Shown here piece by piece: positions 2,833 to 15,071 of a stretch of DNA of 64,000 bases. Source of the DNA: a virus; the IMG/VR virus record IMGVR_UViG_3300032246_001180, positions 32,001 through 96,000 of that record. The stretch is one strand, 5' to 3'. The notes beneath the pieces are model-generated. The model made no database searches. It was not told where the DNA came from and saw only the letters and a program-made list of their open reading frames with translations. How positions within the stretch are numbered: position 1 is the stretch's first letter; each line of letters opens with the position of its first letter. The position numbers were made by a program, and so were the translations under genes.

Positions 2833-3239
2833 TGATTACTATAGCAGATTTAGTTGAGGTAACACTCAAAGAACAGGACGACTTCCTCAAGGTTCGTGAA
2901 ACTCTAACCCGAATCGGTGTTGCTTCCAAAAAAGAAAATATTCTATATCAGTCTTGTCATATACTACACAAACAGGGAAAATACTATATCGTACATTTCA
3001 AAGAACTCTTTGCTTTGGATGGTAAACCTTCTGATATATCAGAAAATGATTTATCCCGTAGAAATGCCATTACCAAGTTATTACAAGATTGGGGACTTTG
3101 CAAAGTGGTAAATATGAAACAGATTGAAACACCGGAACCAATCTTTTTATCTCAGATTAAGATACTATCCCATAAAGAAAAGAACGATTGGAATTTAGTA
3201 CCAAAATATAATATTGGTAAAAAACCAGGATCTTATTGA
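2829..3239 (+). CDS. regA: RegA translational repressor
   Basis: DDFLKVRETLTRIGVAS, LYQSCHILHKQGKYYIVHFKELF. Confidence 0.95.
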   Translation: MMITIADLVEVTLKEQDDFLKVRETLTRIGVASKKENILYQSCHILHKQGKYYIVHFKELFALDGKPSDISENDLSRRNAITKLLQDWGLCKVVNMKQIETPEPIFLSQIKILSHKEKNDWNLVPKYNIGKKPGSY

Positions 3240-10226: not shown

Positions 10227-10303
10227 GCCCCGATGACGGAATTGGTATACGTGCTGGTCTTAGAAACCAGATTTTGCGAGTTCGACTCTCGCTTGGGGCA
10301 CCA
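10227..10303 (+). tRNA. tRNA-Leu(TAG), short variable arm
   Basis: cloverleaf; ctggt-ctTAGaa-accag; CCA. Confidence 0.9.
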
Positions 10304-10371
10304 ATAAAAAAGTCTTGGACACGCAGACTTTAAAGAGAAGTGGGAGTAGGTGGAAACCCTACACCGAATTT

Positions 10372-10454
10372 GCGGGTATGGTGAAATAGGTAAACACAGC
10401 AGACTTAAAATCTGCCGCTTCGGCTTGCCGGTTCGATTCTGGCTACCCGCACCA
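10372..10454 (+). tRNA. tRNA-Leu(TAA)
   Basis: gcaga-ctTAAaa-tctgc; long variable arm; CCA. Confidence 0.93.
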
Positions 10455-10458
10455 AGTT

Positions 10459-10541
10459 TGTTGTTTTTTTGCAACAGTTGTTGTTTTTTTATTAAATTTT
10501 TATGAAAAGTGCTTGACATTTAAGAAAATATCCTATATACT
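10459..10541 (+). promoter_or_regulatory. TGTTGT-N6-GCAACA palindrome plus sigma70-type promoter of tRNA array
   Basis: palindrome 10459-10476; TTGACA 10513-18, 17 nt, TATACT 10536-41. Confidence 0.8.
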
Positions 10542-10547
10542 ATCACT

Positions 10548-10691
10548 ATGTTAAATTTTAAATCACACTCCTTTTTTAGAACGCCTGATGCCATGTCAAC
10601 AACATGGCAGGCTAACTATCGCTCACCGAAATGTGAGAATCCAGGTAGTATTGTCGGCAAGGGGTTTTGTGATGGAGATGGATGCTGTTAA
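10548..10691 (+). CDS. putative leaderless attenuator leader peptide (47 aa, contains all 20 amino acids)
   Basis: ATG 7 nt after -10 box, no SD; ggggttttgtg pairs with terminator 5' arm. Confidence 0.75.
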   Translation: MLNFKSHSFFRTPDAMSTTWQANYRSPKCENPGSIVGKGFCDGDGCC

Positions 10692-10718
10692 GTAACTAAT
10701 CTCAAAGAATACAAACAC

Positions 10719-10751
10719 AAAACCCTAGACCTAAAAAATCTAGGGTTTTTT
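10719..10751 (+). terminator. attenuator terminator 2
   Basis: aaaaccctaga-cctaaaaaa-tctagggtttttt. Confidence 0.9.
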
Positions 10752-10752
10752 G

Positions 10753-10784
10753 TTTTCGTTCTTACGAAAATTGCTCTTTAAAAA
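10753..10784 (+). promoter_or_regulatory. boxB-like hairpin plus boxA (TGCTCTTTAAAAA) antitermination site
   Basis: ttttcgt-tctt-acgaaaa, then close match to rrn boxA TGCTCTTTAACA. Confidence 0.65.
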
Positions 10785-10799
10785 CTTATATTGCTTTGT

Positions 10800-10873
10800 T
10801 GGGACATTGTGTAGTGGTAGCACAGCAGACTTTGACTCTGTTAGTCTAGGTTCGATTCCTAGTGTCCCTGCCA
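10800..10873 (+). tRNA. tRNA-Gln(TTG)
   Basis: gcaga-ctTTGac-tctgt; CCA. Confidence 0.92.
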
Positions 10874-10878
10874 AAAAT

Positions 10879-10970
10879 GGAAGGTAATGCAGCGGGGTTG
10901 GTCCTGCGACTGGCCTTGAAAACCAGGTTCTGAGAAATCGGATGGGGTTCGACTCCTCTGCCTTCCACCA
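10879..10970 (+). tRNA. tRNA-Ser(TGA), apparent 8/4 fold
   Basis: GGAAGGTA/TGCCTTCC acceptor, 4-bp T stem, ctTGAaa loop. Confidence 0.85.
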
Positions 10971-11095
10971 TATAAAAGCTCTTTGTGTAACTACAATGGA
11001 ACACCGAAATACTTGTCAATGTCGACCACGAACAAGGACCGGCCATGAAGAAGGGGTTATGTTCGGTTCAATTCCGTCAGAGAGCTTCTATATGG
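10968..11095 (+). ncRNA. helix-enclosed non-tRNA RNA 1 (with T-loop-like hairpin)
   Basis: ccatataaaagctctttg/cagagagcttctatatgg; cgg-ttcaatt-ccg. Confidence 0.6.
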
Positions 11096-11182
11096 GAGGG
11101 TTGGGTGAGTGGTTAAACCAGCGGTTTGCTAAACCGTCATCCAGAAATGGGTGCATCAGTTCGAATCTGATACCCTCCGCCA
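11095..11182 (+). tRNA. tRNA-Ser(GCT)
   Basis: gcggt-ttGCTaa-accgt; long variable arm. Confidence 0.92.
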
Positions 11183-11187
11183 ATTTT

Positions 11188-11262
11188 CTCGCCATCGTTC
11201 AACGGATAGGACAGCATTCTTCTAAAGTGCGAATGGGGGTTCGATTCCCTCTGGCGAGGCCA
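11188..11262 (+). tRNA. tRNA-Arg(TCT)
   Basis: gcatt-ctTCTaa-agtgc. Confidence 0.92.
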
Positions 11263-11268
11263 ATTTGT

Positions 11269-11345
11269 GTGGGCGTGCAGCTGAATGGTTAGGCACCGGA
11301 TTGCAAATCCGTATTATGCAGGTTCGAATCCTGTCGCCCACTCCA
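11269..11345 (+). tRNA. tRNA-Cys(GCA)
   Basis: cgga-ttGCAaa-tccg; U73 CCA. Confidence 0.9.
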
Positions 11346-11349
11346 AGAC

Positions 11350-11450
11350 TGTTGTATTTTTACAACACATCGAAAATAGTGCTTGACTATTTCTGTGGTT
11401 CGTGTAGAATACGTTCTATCGATTGAGAAATTAATCGATTCTTTAAAAAT
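11350..11450 (+). promoter_or_regulatory. palindrome plus internal sigma70-type promoter, hairpin and boxA-like site
   Basis: TGTTGT-ATTTTT-ACAACA; TTGACT-16-TAGAAT; atcgatt/aatcgat; TTCTTTAAAAAT. Confidence 0.65.
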
Positions 11451-11467
11451 TTGATGTAGTTTTTGAT

Positions 11468-11543
11468 GCACCTATCGTCTAACGGTTAGGACGCTGCCCT
11501 TTCAAGGCGGAAACGTAGGGTTCGATTCCCTCTAGGTGTACCA
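11468..11543 (+). tRNA. tRNA-Glu(TTC)
   Basis: ctgcc-ctTTCaa-ggcgg. Confidence 0.9.
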
Positions 11544-11757
11544 TACTAAAACATATTGGGTTACCAACTCCAGTAGGTACCTAGGAGAGATAATATCTGT
11601 GGCCGCACAGACTCTCGCTAGTAGTACATGAAGCAATCCGACTGTGCTGGAATCAGTTGAACCGTAATGTGGAAGTTGTCTTATCGGTAGACGAAACCGT
11701 GAGAAGCCAGATGAAGTTCTGGAACGACAACGACACCCCAATGTGTTTTAGTATGGT
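11540..11757 (+). ncRNA. helix-enclosed non-tRNA RNA 2 (~220 nt, multi-stem, possible pseudoknot)
   Basis: 21-bp terminal helix and several internal stems. Confidence 0.7.
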
Positions 11758-11780
11758 ATTTTTTAAACAAGGAGAAAGTA

Positions 11781-11822
11781 ATGAAACGAAAATTAAAACC
11801 TCGAAAGATTATGGGGGTATAA
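11781..11822 (+). CDS. Lys/Arg-rich mini-ORF MKRKLKPRKIMGV overlapping tRNA-Lys 5' end
   Basis: AAGGAG RBS 6 nt before ATG. Confidence 0.4.
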   Translation: MKRKLKPRKIMGV

Positions 11823-11887
11823 CTTAACGGCTAAAGTAGTAGGCTTTTAACCTATTAATCAGAGTTCGATTCTCTGTACCCCTACCA
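11813..11887 (+). tRNA. tRNA-Lys(TTT)
   Basis: gtagg-ctTTTaa-cctat. Confidence 0.92.
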
Positions 11888-11982
11888 TATAAAAACACTC
11901 TAAACTGGACGCAGGTTCTATGAAGCAAGACCTCGGGGTCATGTCCGAGAAGGTGTGGAGAATGAGAGTGTTTCTATATGGT
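11884..11982 (+). ncRNA. helix-enclosed non-tRNA RNA 3
   Basis: accatataaaaacactct/agagtgtttctatatggt. Confidence 0.6.
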
Positions 11983-12054
11983 GATGTAGCACAACGGTAG
12001 TGCATCTGCTTCATACGCAGGAGGTTAGTGGCTCGATTCCACTCATCACCACCA
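11980..12054 (+). tRNA. tRNA with CAT anticodon (elongator Met, or Ile2)
   Basis: ctgc-ttCATac-gcag. Confidence 0.85.
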
Positions 12055-12060
12055 GATTTT

Positions 12061-12135
12061 GCCCCGTTAATATAACGGCTATTATGCCCGCCTGTCCAGC
12101 GGAGAACAGGAGTTCGACTCTCCTACGGGGCGCCA
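12061..12135 (+). tRNA. tRNA-Asp(GTC)
   Basis: ccgc-ctGTCca-gcgg; G73. Confidence 0.9.
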
Positions 12136-12142
12136 AGTTTAT

Positions 12143-12217
12143 TCCAGAGTAGCACAGCGGTAGTGCAGTTGACTGTTAATCAATTGGTCGTAGGTTCGAT
12201 CCCTGCCTCTGGAGCCA
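12143..12217 (+). tRNA. tRNA-Asn(GTT)
   Basis: gttga-ctGTTaa-tcaat. Confidence 0.93.
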
Positions 12218-12230
12218 GTTAGTAAGTTTA

Positions 12231-12319
12231 GGAAGTGTGCGCTGAATTGGTTGAAGGCAACGGACTGTAAATCCGCCACATAAGAAACATTGTAGGTTCG
12301 AATCCTACCACTTCCACCA
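12231..12319 (+). tRNA. tRNA-Tyr(GTA)
   Basis: cgga-ctGTAaa-tccg; long variable arm. Confidence 0.9.
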
Positions 12320-12323
12320 AATA

Positions 12324-12397
12324 GCCTCTTTAGTTTAATGGTAGAACTCCGCTTTTACACAGCGGGTACGGCAGTTCGATTCTGTCAAGAGGCACCA
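12324..12397 (+). tRNA. tRNA-Val(TAC)
   Basis: ccgct-ttTACac-agcgg. Confidence 0.92.
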
Positions 12398-12399
12398 AT

Positions 12400-12475
12400 G
12401 CCAAGATAGCTCAGTTGGTAGAGCACCTGTCTGAAGAACAGGGTGTGGTTGGTTCGATCCCAACTCTTGGTGCCA
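12400..12475 (+). tRNA. tRNA-Phe(GAA)
   Basis: cctgt-ctGAAga-acagg. Confidence 0.92.
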
Positions 12476-12483
12476 AATTTTTT

Positions 12484-12557
12484 GCCCTATTAGTTAAATG
12501 GTAGAACATCGGTTTTGTAATCCGAGGACGGGAGTTCGATTCTCTCATGGGGCACCA
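12484..12557 (+). tRNA. tRNA-Thr(TGT)
   Basis: tcgg-tttTGTaat-ccga. Confidence 0.9.
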
Positions 12558-12571
12558 TTTAAAGGAATACG

Positions 12572-12817
12572 ATGTTAGATTATATCGTAACATTTTTAGC
12601 AATATTTTTACTTGATGTAGTGTACACTTATTATTTACGTTGTGTACAAAATAACAATGTCTTAGGTGCCAGTATATGGTCTATCGCTTGTTATTTGTTA
12701 GGCAGTTTAGCAGTAATTAATTATACAACAAATCATTGGTTGTTATTGCCAGCAATAGCAGGTGCTTTTTGTGGCACTTATGTGGGTATGACAATTAAAA
12801 AGAATAACGGAGTATAG
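12572..12817 (+). CDS. small 3-TM membrane protein
   Basis: hydrophobic ORF with AAGGA RBS. Confidence 0.7.
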   Translation: MLDYIVTFLAIFLLDVVYTYYLRCVQNNNVLGASIWSIACYLLGSLAVINYTTNHWLLLPAIAGAFCGTYVGMTIKKNNGV

Positions 12818-12884
12818 CACAGCCAGATAGTGCGCTCGGTTTGGGACCGAGAGGTCGCAGGTTTGATTCCTGCTACTCCGACCA
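12808..12884 (+). tRNA. tRNA-Pro(TGG)
   Basis: ctcgg(t)-ttTGGga-ccgag; C1-G72. Confidence 0.9.
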
Positions 12885-12889
12885 TTTAA

Positions 12890-12964
12890 GGGGGATTGGC
12901 GTAATTGGGAACGCAGTAGCTTTGCAAGCTTCAGTCGGGAGTTCGAATCTCCCATTCTCCACCA
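12890..12964 (+). tRNA. tRNA-Ala(TGC)
   Basis: agc-ttTGCaa-gct; G3-U70. Confidence 0.9.
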
Positions 12965-13021
12965 TTTTAAGTTTACAATAAAGTTTTTTAAGTTTACAAT
13001 AAAGTTTTTTAAGTTTACAAT
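12965..13021. repeat. 21-bp tandem repeat (aagtttacaataaagtttttt) x ~2.7
   Basis: direct inspection. Confidence 0.9.
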
Positions 13022-13096
13022 CGGTCCTTAGTAAAATGAATATTACACAGCGCTACGAACGCTGAAGTGGGAGTTTGATTCTCTCAGGACCGGCCA
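13022..13096 (+). tRNA. tRNA-Arg(ACG)
   Basis: cagcg-ctACGaa-cgctg. Confidence 0.9.
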
Positions 13097-13098
13097 TC

Positions 13099-13172
13099 AC
13101 TCGCATAGCTCAAAGGTAGAGCACTCGCTTGATAAGCGATAGACGAAGGATCGTTACCTTCTGTGAGTACCA
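13099..13172 (+). tRNA. tRNA-Ile(GAT)
   Basis: tcgc-ttGATaa-gcga. Confidence 0.88.
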
Positions 13173-13175
13173 TGT

Positions 13176-13250
13176 ATCTCGCTGGTGTTAACGGCAGCAT
13201 AGCGGTCTCCAAAACCGAAGGACGGGGTTCGAATCCCTGGCGGGGTGCCA
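13176..13250 (+). tRNA. tRNA-Trp(CCA)
   Basis: cggt-ctCCAaa-accg. Confidence 0.92.
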
Positions 13251-13272
13251 ATTATAATAAAAAGGTGTAATC

Positions 13273-13746
13273 ATGCGTAAATTAAATTTAGATGAAGTCA
13301 TTTCGTTTATCGAACAACAATCTCCAGAAAGTAAAGTTTATATTGGTTGTGATTCAGAGCGAGTTATTGTTGACGGCGTACCTTATGCTGATTATGTTCT
13401 TGCAATTGTAGTACACATCAATGGCAACAATGGTTGCAAATTATTTGGTGAAGTTAGTAGAGAAAGAGATTACGACCAGAAAAGAAACAAGCCTAGATAT
13501 AGGTTGATGAATGAAGTTTACAAGGTTTCAGAATTATATTTAAACCTTGTTAAAGTTTTAGTTGACCGTGATATTCAAGTTCACCTAGATATTAATCCAG
13601 ATGAAATGCACGGTTCATCTTGTGTTATCAATGAAGCGATTGGCTATATTAAAGGAACTTGCAATGTAATACCTCTGGTTAAACCAGAAGCGTTTGCGGC
13701 CTCTTATGCAGCTGACCGTTTTAAAGGACTAAAAAAGGCAGCTTGA
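13273..13746 (+). CDS. RNase H-like YkuK (DUF458) family protein
   Basis: YIGCDS, RLMNEV, VHLDIN, VKPEAFAASYAAD. Confidence 0.8.
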   Translation: MRKLNLDEVISFIEQQSPESKVYIGCDSERVIVDGVPYADYVLAIVVHINGNNGCKLFGEVSRERDYDQKRNKPRYRLMNEVYKVSELYLNLVKVLVDRDIQVHLDINPDEMHGSSCVINEAIGYIKGTCNVIPLVKPEAFAASYAADRFKGLKKAA

Positions 13747-13763
13747 ACATATGAGAGATTACA

Positions 13764-14210
13764 ATGATATCAACAATAAAAACAATAACAGAACAATTTC
13801 TTTCTCTTTTACTTGATGATCCAGTAAGACCATCAATACCACATCTCGACCGTGTAGGTGAGAACAAGGATATTTTTGTTTTTCGGGGAGAAGATGATTC
13901 TATAAAAGCAATTACTTGCGTTAGTTACCAAGTAACTGTACCAACATCAGAGGCGGAATTATTTGAAAGATGTTCCACTCCGACTGTGGCAGTATTCTAT
14001 ACAATTTGGAGTTATGCGCCAGGTGCTGGTCGCCAATTGATATTCGATGCTGTACAATACATAAAAGAAAATAGAAAAGATATTAACAGATTTGTAACAC
14101 TTTCACCTAAAACTCATATGGCACGAAAGTTCCATACAAGAAACGGTGCAATGGTGTTTCGTGATAATCCTGAAACGGTGAATTACGAATACAAGAATGT
14201 AGTTCTTTAA
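13764..14210 (+). CDS. hypothetical GNAT-like protein
   Basis: FYTIWSY..GAGRQL, LSP, ARKFH.RNGA resemble acetyltransferase motifs. Confidence 0.55.
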   Translation: MISTIKTITEQFLSLLLDDPVRPSIPHLDRVGENKDIFVFRGEDDSIKAITCVSYQVTVPTSEAELFERCSTPTVAVFYTIWSYAPGAGRQLIFDAVQYIKENRKDINRFVTLSPKTHMARKFHTRNGAMVFRDNPETVNYEYKNVVL

Positions 14211-14284
14211 GCGGGATTAGTTTAATGGTCAAACGAAACCTTGCCAAGGTTTAGTCAGGAGTTCGATTCTCCTATCCCGCTCCA
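14211..14284 (+). tRNA. tRNA-Gly(GCC)
   Basis: aaacc-ttGCCaa-ggttt; U73. Confidence 0.93.
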
Positions 14285-14366
14285 TTTAAGAGTGCAGGCT
14301 CTTTTTAAATCCTGCCTTTGTGTGGTACCGAACATCGCTACTGCTTGGATAAGCATCGGTACATTT

Positions 14367-14440
14367 GCAGGGTTAGTTTAATGGTAAAACTCCATCCTTC
14401 CAAGTTGGTGTCGTGAGTTCGATTCTCACACTCTGCTCCA
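14367..14440 (+). tRNA. tRNA-Gly(TCC)
   Basis: ctTCCaa loop; U73 CCA. Confidence 0.9.
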
Positions 14441-14446
14441 GTTTAT

Positions 14447-14521
14447 GGAGAAATTAGTTTAGTGGTAAAACCACGGGTTGTGATTCCGTTATCACGGGTT
14501 CGATTCCCGTATTTCTCCCCA
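14447..14521 (+). tRNA. tRNA-His(GTG)
   Basis: G-1:C73; acggg-ttGTGat-tccgt. Confidence 0.9.
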
Positions 14522-14525
14522 ATTT

Positions 14526-14600
14526 GGGCCAATAGCTTAATGGTAAAGCAATCGACTCATAATCGATTGAGTCTTGGTTCAATTCCAAGTTGGCCCACCA
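14526..14600 (+). tRNA. tRNA with CAT anticodon (probably Ile2, lysidine type)
   Basis: atcga-ctCATaa-tcgat; GGGCC acceptor. Confidence 0.85.
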
Positions 14601-14618
14601 AGTTTGCCATAGATAGTG

Positions 14619-14647
14619 TTGACAAAGCAATATAAGTATAGTAGAAT
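14619..14647 (+). promoter_or_regulatory. sigma70-type promoter
   Basis: TTGACA-17-TAGAAT. Confidence 0.7.
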
Positions 14648-14655
14648 GATTAAAT

Positions 14656-14722
14656 GCGGTGTGTGATAGCACGACATTCGGTTCCCCCGATTGTTATCTG
14701 AGCAAAGCAGACCACCGCTCCA
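14656..14722 (+). ncRNA. degenerate tRNA-Gly(TCC)-like RNA (67 nt)
   Basis: GCGGTG/CACCGC-T-CCA, TCC-centred loop, non-canonical T-loop. Confidence 0.6.
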
Positions 14723-14746
14723 TTTTATATATTAAAGGCATCTGTA

Positions 14747-14992
14747 ATGATTTTAAAACCAACTGCATCAAATGTTCATATCACCAGAGTTGCCGCAGAG
14801 AAGCAAACTAAATCTGGTATTATTTTAAAAAACACGGAAGAACCTGACAAAGCAAAAGTTGAATCAATAGGTAAAGACGTAACCGACCTTGAAGTTGGTG
14901 ATGTTGTTTTGGTTAACTGGAATAAAGCAATCAAAGTTGATGTTGATTCATACATCATTCCGGAATCAGACATTATTATGGTATTCGAATAA
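14747..14992 (+). CDS. groES: co-chaperonin GroES (Cpn10)
   Basis: LKP...V.I.....EKQTKSGIIL, VGDVVL, ESDI. Confidence 0.85.
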   Translation: MILKPTASNVHITRVAAEKQTKSGIILKNTEEPDKAKVESIGKDVTDLEVGDVVLVNWNKAIKVDVDSYIIPESDIIMVFE

Positions 14993-14997
14993 TTTAT

Positions 14998-15071
14998 AGC
15001 GGATTAGTGAAACGGTATCACAGAGGACTCATAATCCTCAGTTCCTAGTTCGAATCTAGGGTCCGCAACCA
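14998..15071 (+). tRNA. tRNA-Met(CAT), probable initiator
   Basis: 1:72 mismatch; gagga-ctCATaa-tcctc. Confidence 0.85.

What the first reader, a model, noticed from the sequence alone, without database searches (positions are those of the whole stretch)
10968..11982. Three non-tRNA RNAs in the array, each closed by a related long helix starting at the upstream tRNA's CCA and sharing AUGAAG
Seen: elements 10968-11095, 11540-11757 and 11884-11982 start CCATA(T/C)(A/T)AAA.C and end G.TT(C/T)TA.TATGG, forming 17-21 bp terminal helices. Elements 1 and 3 have an A-C mismatch at the same position. The interiors differ, but each contains ATGAAG (11045; ATGAAGCAA at 11628 and 11920). Element 1 has a T-loop-like cgg-TTCAATT-ccg. 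Established: T4 and T5 tRNA clusters carry stable RNAs of unknown function, and some phage tRNA arrays carry Y-like RNAs. Inference: a common RNase III-type processing stem releases different small RNAs (decoys or regulators) co-induced with the tRNAs.
Basis: partly seen in the sequence, partly recalled or inferred. Interest (0 to 1): 0.72.

Follow-up and report, generated by a model that had tools for sequence, protein, structure and literature searches.

The report
Clamp-closed passenger RNAs between phage tRNAs
Three folded, non-tRNA RNA genes sit in the gaps of this lake phage's tRNA operon, each shut by a conserved 17-21 bp stem that starts at the CCA end of the tRNA before it; hundreds of uncatalogued relatives with very varied interiors exist in other uncultured phages, and their function is unknown.

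Summary
The three elements are real. Each begins at the CCA of the upstream tRNA and is closed by a 17-21 bp helix. E1 and E3 have an A.C mismatch at helix position 8. The helix is selected as RNA on the tRNA-sense strand: 62 independent relatives gave 48 G.U and 0 A.C at positions 11-17. E1, E2 and E3 are three separate structured RNA families, with 12, 31 and 5 covarying pairs. None matches Rfam 15, tRNA models, T4 rnaC/rnaD or Y RNAs.

The same clamp (CCAUAUAAAAACACAYU / RGUGUGUUUCUAUAUGG and covarying variants) closes at least 236 distinct elements in 148 phage loci. Their interiors fall into about 100 types. Two thirds follow tRNA-Lys(UUU), Glu(UUC) or Gln(UUG).

The final UGG pairs with the CCA. 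Where a tRNA follows, U is its -1 base and GG its G1G2. I therefore infer release by RNase P on the 3' side and a cut just after CCA on the 5' side, leaving a stable RNA with both ends locked in the stem. RNase III is possible but untested.

The shared AUGAAG is probably chance. Cargo function is unknown.

Earlier notes of this scan report the same kind of element in other phage genomes.

The parts
10513..10541 (+). sigma-70-like promoter (TTGACA-17-TATACT) of the operon that contains tRNA-Gln, tRNA-Ser(UGA), E1, tRNA-Ser(GCU), Arg and Cys
   Evidence: 11 of 12 matches. No promoter-like site lies between it and E1.
10879..10970 (+). tRNA-Ser(UGA)-like gene whose CCA (10968-10970) forms the first three pairs of the E1 helix
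   Evidence: Rfam tRNA-clan hit of 36.8 bits. Read from the sequence. ARAGORN calls tRNA-Ser(tga) before E1 homologues in L195 and L148.
10968..11095 (+). Element E1, about 125 nt. Clamp arms are 10968-10985 and 11078-11095, with the A.C mismatch at 10975/11088. The cargo has three inner stems and a conserved T-loop-like hairpin. The last G (11095) is G1 of tRNA-Ser(GCU).
   Evidence: Ten homologues give 96.9% of cells paired, 12 pairs with compensatory change, and 0 of 500 shuffles as good.
11383..11410 (+). sigma-70-like promoter (TTGACT-16-TAGAAT) ahead of tRNA-Glu, E2, tRNA-Lys, E3 and tRNA-Met
11468..11543 (+). tRNA-Glu(UUC); its CCA (11541-11543) starts the E2 helix
11541..11756 (+). Element E2, about 216 nt, a multi-helix RNA. 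Clamp arms are 11541-11561 and 11736-11756. It is followed by UAUUUUUU rather than by a tRNA.
   Evidence: Five homologues give 31 of 65 predicted pairs with compensatory change. Changes in the arm pass through G.U.
11813..11887 (+). tRNA-Lys(UUU); its CCA (11885-11887) starts the E3 helix
11885..11981 (+). Element E3, 97 nt. Clamp arms are 11885-11901 and 11965-11981, with the A.C mismatch at 11892/11974. The closing UGG is U(-1) (11979) plus G1G2 (11980-11981) of tRNA-Met.
   Evidence: Five homologues give 5 pairs with compensatory change, three of them in the clamp.
11980..12054 (+). tRNA-Met(CAU), whose RNase P site would define the 3' end of E3
   Evidence: RNase P cleavage is inferred.
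11095..11182 (+). tRNA-Ser(GCU), whose RNase P site would define the 3' end of E1
   Evidence: RNase P cleavage is inferred.

Best explanation
E1, E2 and E3 are three different structured passenger RNAs encoded in the spacers of the phage's tRNA operons. They are transcribed with the tRNAs and cut out by the enzymes that mature the flanking tRNAs. RNase P, cleaving at G1 of the next tRNA, makes the 3' end. An endonucleolytic cut directly after A76 of the preceding tRNA makes the 5' end; this could be RNase E or RNase Z/BN type, with RNase III within the stem as an alternative. The conserved, AU-rich 17-21 bp clamp holds the two new ends together. The released RNA has almost no single-stranded end for exonucleases or 5'-end-dependent RNase E, and its fold is insulated from the neighbouring tRNAs. 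The clamp with its position-8 mismatch is a shared, sequence-conserved module, probably also a protein-binding or processing signal. The interior is the variable working part. Some interiors present a tRNA-like T-loop elbow. Shown here: the structures, their selection at RNA level, their position and their spread. Inferred: the nucleases, the stability and any function in trans.
For: - The elements lie on the tRNA strand inside operons. The only promoter-like sites are upstream of the tRNA runs, and there are no terminator-like sites at the elements.
- RNA-level selection was tested on 62 distinct relatives chosen only by 10-nt ends plus an upstream tRNA. All have helices of 17-24 bp, with 48 G.U and 0 A.C at positions 11-17.
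- The clamp shows compensatory changes within each family.
- Interiors are conserved structures with covariation.
- Flush geometry was tested with a scan that did not require CCA or TGG. Of 105 distinct elements, 92 have CCA just before and 92 have TGG just after. TGG is kept in 36 of 39 cases that have no adjacent downstream tRNA. When a tRNA follows, it starts 1 nt after ..UAUA in 25 of 39 cases, so U is N-1 and GG is G1G2.
- There is a precedent for a one-step cut immediately after CCA that removes a whole hairpin: RNase E at E. coli proK, proL and proM (PMC5291269).
- Elements of the same kind follow the CCA at the 3' end of GOLLD. CCA-anchored helices also fill the excised spacer of permuted tmRNA genes, so these too lie directly after a CCA 3' end.
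Against: - There are no expression or end-mapping data, because these are uncultured phages.
- Over half of the relatives, and E2 itself, have no tRNA directly downstream. RNase P cannot define their 3' ends.
- A stable helix that includes the CCA could hinder rather than help maturation of the upstream tRNA.
- Strong conservation of the clamp sequence is not explained by end protection alone.
- One E2 homologue (L167) is not preceded by a CCA.
- Cargo function is unknown.
Confidence: 0.6

Rival explanations
1. RNase III processing stalk. The clamp acts like the stems that flank 16S and 23S rRNA. Host RNase III cuts both strands near the middle of the helix, around the position-8 mismatch. This separates the upstream tRNA (with a short trailer), the cargo and the downstream tRNA (with a short leader), which exonucleases and RNase P then trim.
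For: The helix length is tightly held at 17-24 bp, and pairing stops at positions 18-20. That is about the size of a minimal bacterial RNase III substrate (established knowledge). A recurrent non-canonical pair lies near the helix centre, as at some phage T7 sites. RNase III separating members of a polycistronic stable-RNA transcript is well known (PMC6582327 abstract).
Against: Nothing here tests cleavage. The flush fit of the helix to A76 and N-1/G1 is not needed for an RNase III site. Many helices are only 17 bp and very AU-rich. The cut would leave the cargo with a stem of only 8-10 bp.
Confidence: 0.2
2. A purely cis-acting spacer structure. The helix pairs the CCA of one tRNA with the 5' end of the next to order or throttle their maturation, and the interior has no function of its own.
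For: The CCA and G1G2 of the flanking tRNAs are part of the helix. Two thirds of the elements follow just three tRNAs, Lys(UUU), Glu(UUC) and Gln(UUG).
Against: The interiors are conserved, covarying multi-helix folds of 60-180 nt. The same interior type follows different tRNAs. Many elements have no tRNA downstream.
Confidence: 0.1
3. DNA-level element. The arms are terminal inverted repeats of a small mobile or recombination cassette (MITE-like or attC-like) that targets tRNA 3' ends.
For: The ends are conserved and the interior highly variable, with about 99 interior clusters among 162 elements sharing one clamp. The same interior type is found behind different tRNAs. A conserved mismatch recalls attC extrahelical bases.
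Against: 48 G.U against 0 A.C on the tRNA-sense strand is a signature of RNA, not of a DNA palindrome. There are no target-site duplications (sequence). No copies lie outside the tRNA array in the genome. The interiors themselves covary as RNA.
Confidence: 0.05
4. Bacterial Y-RNA-like (YrlA-type) RNAs. A long terminal stem binds a Ro60-like protein and a tRNA-like module recruits a nuclease.
For: The architecture is similar: a terminal stem with conserved sequence plus a variable module, sometimes with a T-arm, co-transcribed with tRNAs as for D. radiodurans Yrn2 (PMC4201824). T-loop motifs are the most enriched cargo words.
Against: The 168-kb genome has no TROVE/Ro60 gene. The 5' strand of the stem has no GNCGAA motif (sequence). 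There is no Rfam match even at E <= 10. Only 18% of cargos carry a T-loop-like motif.
Confidence: 0.05

Closest known systems
Phage T4 stable RNAs species 1 and 2 (rnaC, rnaD) in the T4 tRNA gene cluster
   Same: They are non-tRNA stable RNAs of unknown function, encoded in a T4-type phage directly behind a tRNA (rnaD starts 2 nt after tRNA-Arg) and on the tRNA strand.
   Different: rnaC and rnaD have no long CCA-anchored closing helix; rnaD does not even fold better than shuffles. A blastn search of the phage collection with the region containing E1-E3 returned matches only over the tRNA parts. The interiors are unrelated.
tRNA punctuation: spacer-derived RNAs released by tRNA processing, and the excised intervening segment of permuted two-piece tmRNA genes (Rfam RF04321)
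   Same: The element occupies the gap between a CCA 3' end and an RNase P site, so the flanking RNAs' maturation defines its ends. Permuted tmRNA genes in related arrays (L096, L092) have CCA-anchored helices in their spacers.
   Different: Here the spacer holds conserved, independently folded RNA families under a shared, sequence-conserved clamp. In this window they lie between ordinary tRNAs, not inside a tmRNA gene.
RNase III processing stems flanking 16S and 23S rRNA, and phage T7 RNase III sites
   Same: Long helices formed by the sequences flanking an RNA inside a polycistronic stable-RNA transcript.
   Different: These helices are shorter (17-21 bp) and very AU-rich. They are conserved in sequence across unrelated cargos and fit flush to the tRNA ends. 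Cleavage by RNase III has not been shown.
Bacterial Y RNAs (YrlA, Yrn1/2; PMC4201824)
   Same: A terminal stem of paired 5' and 3' ends with conserved sequence, a variable or tRNA-like module, and co-transcription with tRNA.
   Different: No Ro60 gene, no GNCGAA motif and no model match. Most cargos are not tRNA-like.
E. coli proK/proL/proM: a hairpin directly after CCA removed in one step by RNase E (PMC5291269)
   Same: A stable hairpin begins immediately after the encoded CCA. One endonucleolytic cut after CCA yields the mature tRNA and a hairpin fragment.
   Different: There the hairpin is a terminator and the fragment is degraded. Here the hairpin encloses a conserved structured RNA and transcription usually continues into more tRNAs.

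Membership tests
Any Rfam 15 family | Covariance-model match at or near the gathering score | tested here: not met
   The only hits in the window are tRNAs. At E <= 10 on 10400-12100, nothing falls on E1, E2 or E3 except a 6.7-bit T-loop fragment. In related loci the listed hits were only tRNA-clan models, GOLLD and permuted/alpha tmRNA. Lower-scoring rows were not shown (79, 36).
tRNA | Cloverleaf recognised by ARAGORN or RF00005 | tested here: not met
   for E1-E3. Of 254 related elements, 236 contain no ARAGORN tRNA. The 18 that do are mis-joined spans covering whole neighbouring tRNAs.
Bacterial Y RNA (YrlA) | Encoded next to a Ro60/Rsr (TROVE) gene | tested here: not met
   PF05731 search of the whole 168-kb phage record gave no match, while the positive controls responded.
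Bacterial Y RNA (YrlA) | GNCGAAN0-1G Ro60-binding motif in the 5' strand of the terminal stem (PMC4201824) | tested here: not met
   The 5' arms read CCAUAUAAAAGCUCU, CCAUACUAAAACAUAUU and CCAUAUAAAAACACUCU. The only GACGAA lies in an inner hairpin loop of E2 and is not conserved.
Bacterial Y RNA (YrlA) | tRNA-like D and T arms | tested here: inconclusive
   E1 keeps a T-loop-like hairpin but no D arm was identified. E2 and E3 have none. T-loop-like motifs occur in 29 of 162 related cargos.
T4 rnaC / rnaD | Sequence or structural homology to T4 species 1 or 2 RNA | tested here: not met
   The T4 RNAs were fetched and folded and show no terminal clamp. A blastn search of the phage collection with the region containing E1-E3 returned matches only over the tRNA parts.
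T4 rnaC / rnaD | Location in a T4-type tRNA cluster directly behind a tRNA, on the same strand | tested here: met
RNase III processing stem | Helix of about two turns formed by the sequences flanking the released RNA | tested here: met
   17-21 pairs in the window and 17-24 in 62 relatives.
RNase III processing stem | Staggered double-strand cleavage by RNase III | not testable with these tools
   Needs in vitro cleavage or an rnc mutant.
Intrinsic terminator | G+C-rich hairpin followed directly by a U run | tested here: not met
   No terminator-like site at any of the three 3' arms. The arms are AU-rich. Only E2 is followed by UAUUUUUU.
Inverted-repeat mobile DNA (MITE / attC-like) | Symmetry at DNA level (G.T and A.C mismatches equally frequent), target-site duplication, dispersed copies | tested here: not met
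   48 G.U against 0 A.C. No duplications. Copies occur only in the tRNA array.

The most novel reading that the evidence does not exclude
The clamp is a dedicated scaffold, read by one still unknown phage or host protein. It sits at a fixed hot spot behind tRNA-Lys(UUU), Glu(UUC) and Gln(UUG). Phages swap or rapidly evolve a hypervariable repertoire of about 100 or more cargo RNAs in it, including tRNA-elbow mimics. This would be an RNA cassette system in a phage-host arms race, for example decoys for the host nucleases or defence systems that attack exactly these tRNAs.
Probability: 0.15. Interest if true: 0.85.

Novelty: new variant of a known kind. Interest (0 to 1): 0.66.

Why it matters
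Phage tRNA arrays are usually read as codon-supply or anti-defence tRNA sets. This finding shows that in a large group of uncultured T4-like lake phages the arrays also carry many other structured RNAs, none in Rfam, delivered in a common conserved stem. The three families in this window (about 125, 216 and 97 nt) have enough covariation to be registered as new RNA families. The clamp gives a simple search handle for finding hundreds more. If the clamp proves to be a general release-and-stabilise module, it is also a natural counterpart of engineered tRNA-flanked RNA expression cassettes. The strong link to tRNA-Lys, Glu and Gln, the classic targets of anticodon nucleases (my own knowledge), makes a role in phage-host conflict testable.

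Tried and rejected
- **Rfam.** Scans of the window at gathering score and at E <= 10, and of 33 related loci, gave nothing on the elements.
- **Cultured phages.** megablast found nothing. blastn matched only the tRNA parts.
- **Y RNA.** No TROVE gene and no Ro-binding motif.
- **T4 rnaC/rnaD homology.** Rejected.
- **AUGAAG as a start codon or shared motif.** The ATG is paired and not conserved, and a shared 6-mer occurs in 6% of shuffles. A possible 8-10-codon ORF in E2 has no Shine-Dalgarno sequence, is absent in L167, and its conservation is explained by the RNA pairing.
- **Cargo as antisense or a copy of phage sequence.** Only chance-level matches in the 168-kb genome.
- **DUF458 RNase H-like ORF in the array as the clamp's dedicated nuclease.** It is present in 11 of 12 related arrays whether or not they carry elements, so there is no specific link.
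- **5' arm as a T4 late promoter.** UAUAAAAA resembles the T4 late-promoter consensus TATAAATA (my own knowledge). Covarying clamp variants destroy the motif while keeping the pairing.
- **Two-domain clamp (variable outer half, conserved inner half).** Not borne out by per-position information content in 121 independently found helices.
- **Bacterial genomes.** A specific paired-arm pattern hit only 7 places in 185,579 species genomes. Five of these are tRNA arrays on small MAG contigs, so there is no sign of a host chromosomal origin.

Full report
**Context.** The window is bases 32001-96000 of a 168,242-bp IMG/VR virus record. It encodes a family-B DNA polymerase and a UvsX-type recombinase, so it is a T4-like phage. 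Several hundred relatives exist in metagenomic virus contigs. The tRNA array at 10227-15071 has 24 ARAGORN tRNAs. Two more are seen only by Rfam models: a Ser(UGA)-like gene at 10879-10970 and a Cys gene at about 11271-11343. Promoter-like sites lie at 10513-10541 and 11383-11410. None lies directly before any element, and no terminator-like site coincides with them.

**The observation.**
- E1 (10968-11095), E2 (11541-11756) and E3 (11885-11981) each start with the CCA of the upstream tRNA and end in UGG.
- Their ends form helices of 17, about 21 and 16 pairs.
- E1 and E3 carry an A.C mismatch at helix position 8.
- Each folds far better than dinucleotide shuffles.
- The paired arms occur nowhere else in the genome.
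- In E1 the last G of the stem is G1 of tRNA-Ser(GCU). In E3 the closing UGG is N-1, G1 and G2 of tRNA-Met.

**Relatives.**
- PolB-anchored loci contained direct homologues of E1 (L066) and E3 (L075). They also held other long-stem elements that start at a CCA but have different arms and interiors.
- Among 62 distinct hits whose first three bases are the CCA of an ARAGORN tRNA, every one extends the helix to 17-24 bp. At positions 11-17, which the pattern did not fix, there are 48 G.U and 0 A.C non-Watson-Crick pairs. A DNA palindrome would give both equally, so the helix is selected in the tRNA-sense transcript.
- A second scan specified only the inner 14 nt of each arm. It gave 105 distinct elements, of which 92 have CCA immediately upstream and 92 have TGG immediately downstream.
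- TGG is kept in 36 of 39 cases where no tRNA follows directly, so pairing with the CCA is itself conserved.
- Where a tRNA follows, it begins 1 nt after ..UAUA in 25 of 39 cases.
- Pooling 283 loci with 3227 tRNAs gives 236 distinct CCA-anchored helices of at least 15 pairs that contain no tRNA, in 148 loci. Of these, 67% follow tRNA-Lys(UUU), Glu(UUC) or Gln(UUG), which make up 12% of the tRNAs. Position 8 is A.C in 46%.
- In 121 helices that match neither scan pattern, position 8 is still the position most often unpaired within the 17-bp stem.
- Outside virus contigs, a specific paired-arm pattern hit only 7 places in 185,579 species genomes. Five are tRNA arrays on small MAG contigs.

**The interiors.**
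- E1 belongs to a 10-member family in which 96.9% of cells are paired and 12 pairs show compensatory change. No shuffle out of 500 reaches this, and slid controls collapse.
- E2 belongs to a 5-member family of about 210-233 nt in which 31 of 65 predicted pairs covary. One member (L167) is not preceded by a CCA. Two members (L109, L192) are followed directly by a second clamp-closed element.
- E3 has four further homologues with 5 covarying pairs.
- The same interior type is found behind different tRNAs: E1-type after Gln, Tyr, Lys and Ser; E3-type after Lys, Thr and Gln.
- Across 162 distinct elements with the canonical clamp there are about 99 interior clusters by blastn.
- The most enriched interior words are the tRNA T-loop (GGTTCGA). 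A T-loop-like motif occurs in 29 of 162 elements against 5.6 expected, usually abutting the 3' arm. Most interiors have none.
- The interiors have no significant sense or antisense match elsewhere in the phage genome.

**Comparison with known RNAs.**
- No Rfam 15 family matches. Related arrays do contain GOLLD and permuted tmRNA.
- In L103 a clamp-closed element starts at the CCA that ends GOLLD.
- T4 rnaC and rnaD occupy the same niche behind a tRNA but lack the clamp and any similarity.
- Y RNAs share the general plan but fail on Ro60 linkage and on the binding motif.
- A lead from earlier notes of this scan said such RNAs also fill the excised spacer of permuted tmRNA genes. I checked this partly: the tmRNA spacers in L096 and L092 form CCA-anchored helices of 18 and 14 pairs, though not with the canonical arm sequence.

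**Mechanism (inferred).**
- Both ends coincide with tRNA-processing sites. The U of UGG is the N-1 base and GG are G1G2 of the next tRNA, so RNase P would leave the element ending in ..UAUAU.
- A cut directly after A76 would start the element at UAUAAAA. E. coli RNase E makes exactly such a one-step cut when a hairpin follows the CCA of the proline tRNAs (PMC5291269).
- The product would be an RNA whose two ends are locked in a stem of about 14 bp with a one-base overhang. From general knowledge of bacterial exonucleases and of 5'-end-dependent RNase E, such an RNA should be long-lived.
- The AU-rich outer stem with its mismatch may allow the fraying needed for the cut after CCA.
- RNase III cleavage near the central mismatch is the main alternative and could not be tested.
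- Neither model explains why the clamp sequence is so conserved over about 100 interior types. A common binding protein, or recombination between arms at a fixed site, are the obvious candidates.

**Verdict.** The structures are real and selected as RNA. They are widespread in uncultured T4-like phages and uncatalogued. Function is unknown. Earlier notes of this scan describe the same kind of element in other phage genomes.

Noticed in passing
window 10879-10970: A tRNA-Ser(UGA)-like gene with a long variable arm and a C.A mismatch closing the anticodon stem. ARAGORN misses it. Rfam scores it 36.8 bits with the tRNA-Sec model, below that model's threshold.
   Followed up: partly
window 11271-11343: A tRNA (Cys by its neighbours in related arrays) found only by Rfam RF00005 (43.2 bits) and not by ARAGORN.
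   Followed up: no
window 13273-13746: An RNase H-like (PF04308, DUF458) ORF embedded in the tRNA array. Homologues lie in 11 of 12 related PolB-anchored arrays and in 25 of 118 pattern-derived loci, whether or not clamp elements are present.
   Followed up: partly
L103:2633-3098 and 3103-3190; L085:11242-11709 (- strand): GOLLD RNAs sit in related phage tRNA arrays. In L103 the GOLLD 3' end reads ..CCACCA, and a canonical clamp-closed 88-nt element starts at that CCA.
   Followed up: partly
L103:812-1112, L096:6264-6540, L092:2777-3297: Permuted (two-piece) tmRNA genes in related arrays. Their intervening segments form CCA-anchored helices (18 pairs spanning 43 nt in L096, 14 pairs spanning 286 nt in L092).
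   Followed up: partly
window 11757-11822: The E2 clamp is followed by UAUUUUUU. Next comes AAGGAGA and a 13-codon, Lys-rich ORF (MKRKLKPRKIMGV) whose end overlaps the 5' end of tRNA-Lys(UUU). No promoter-like site lies between E2 and tRNA-Lys.
   Followed up: no
window 12965-13020: Three tandem copies of about 19 nt (TTTTAAGTTTACAATAAAG-like) between tRNA-Ala and tRNA-Arg(ACG).
   Followed up: no
L109:1060-1090 and L192:5520-5546 (- strand): Directly after the E2-type element comes a second long-stem element of another clamp class (CAUUUGUUUUGCUGA...). That class follows tRNA-Glu in L044, L047 and L060. Here it starts without a CCA, so elements can stand in tandem.
   Followed up: no
283 loci pooled: Clamp elements are nine-, five- and three-fold enriched behind tRNA-Lys(UUU), Glu(UUC) and Gln(UUG). 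Many unrelated interior types share the site behind Lys(UUU). Shared ancestry of the loci was not corrected for.
   Followed up: partly
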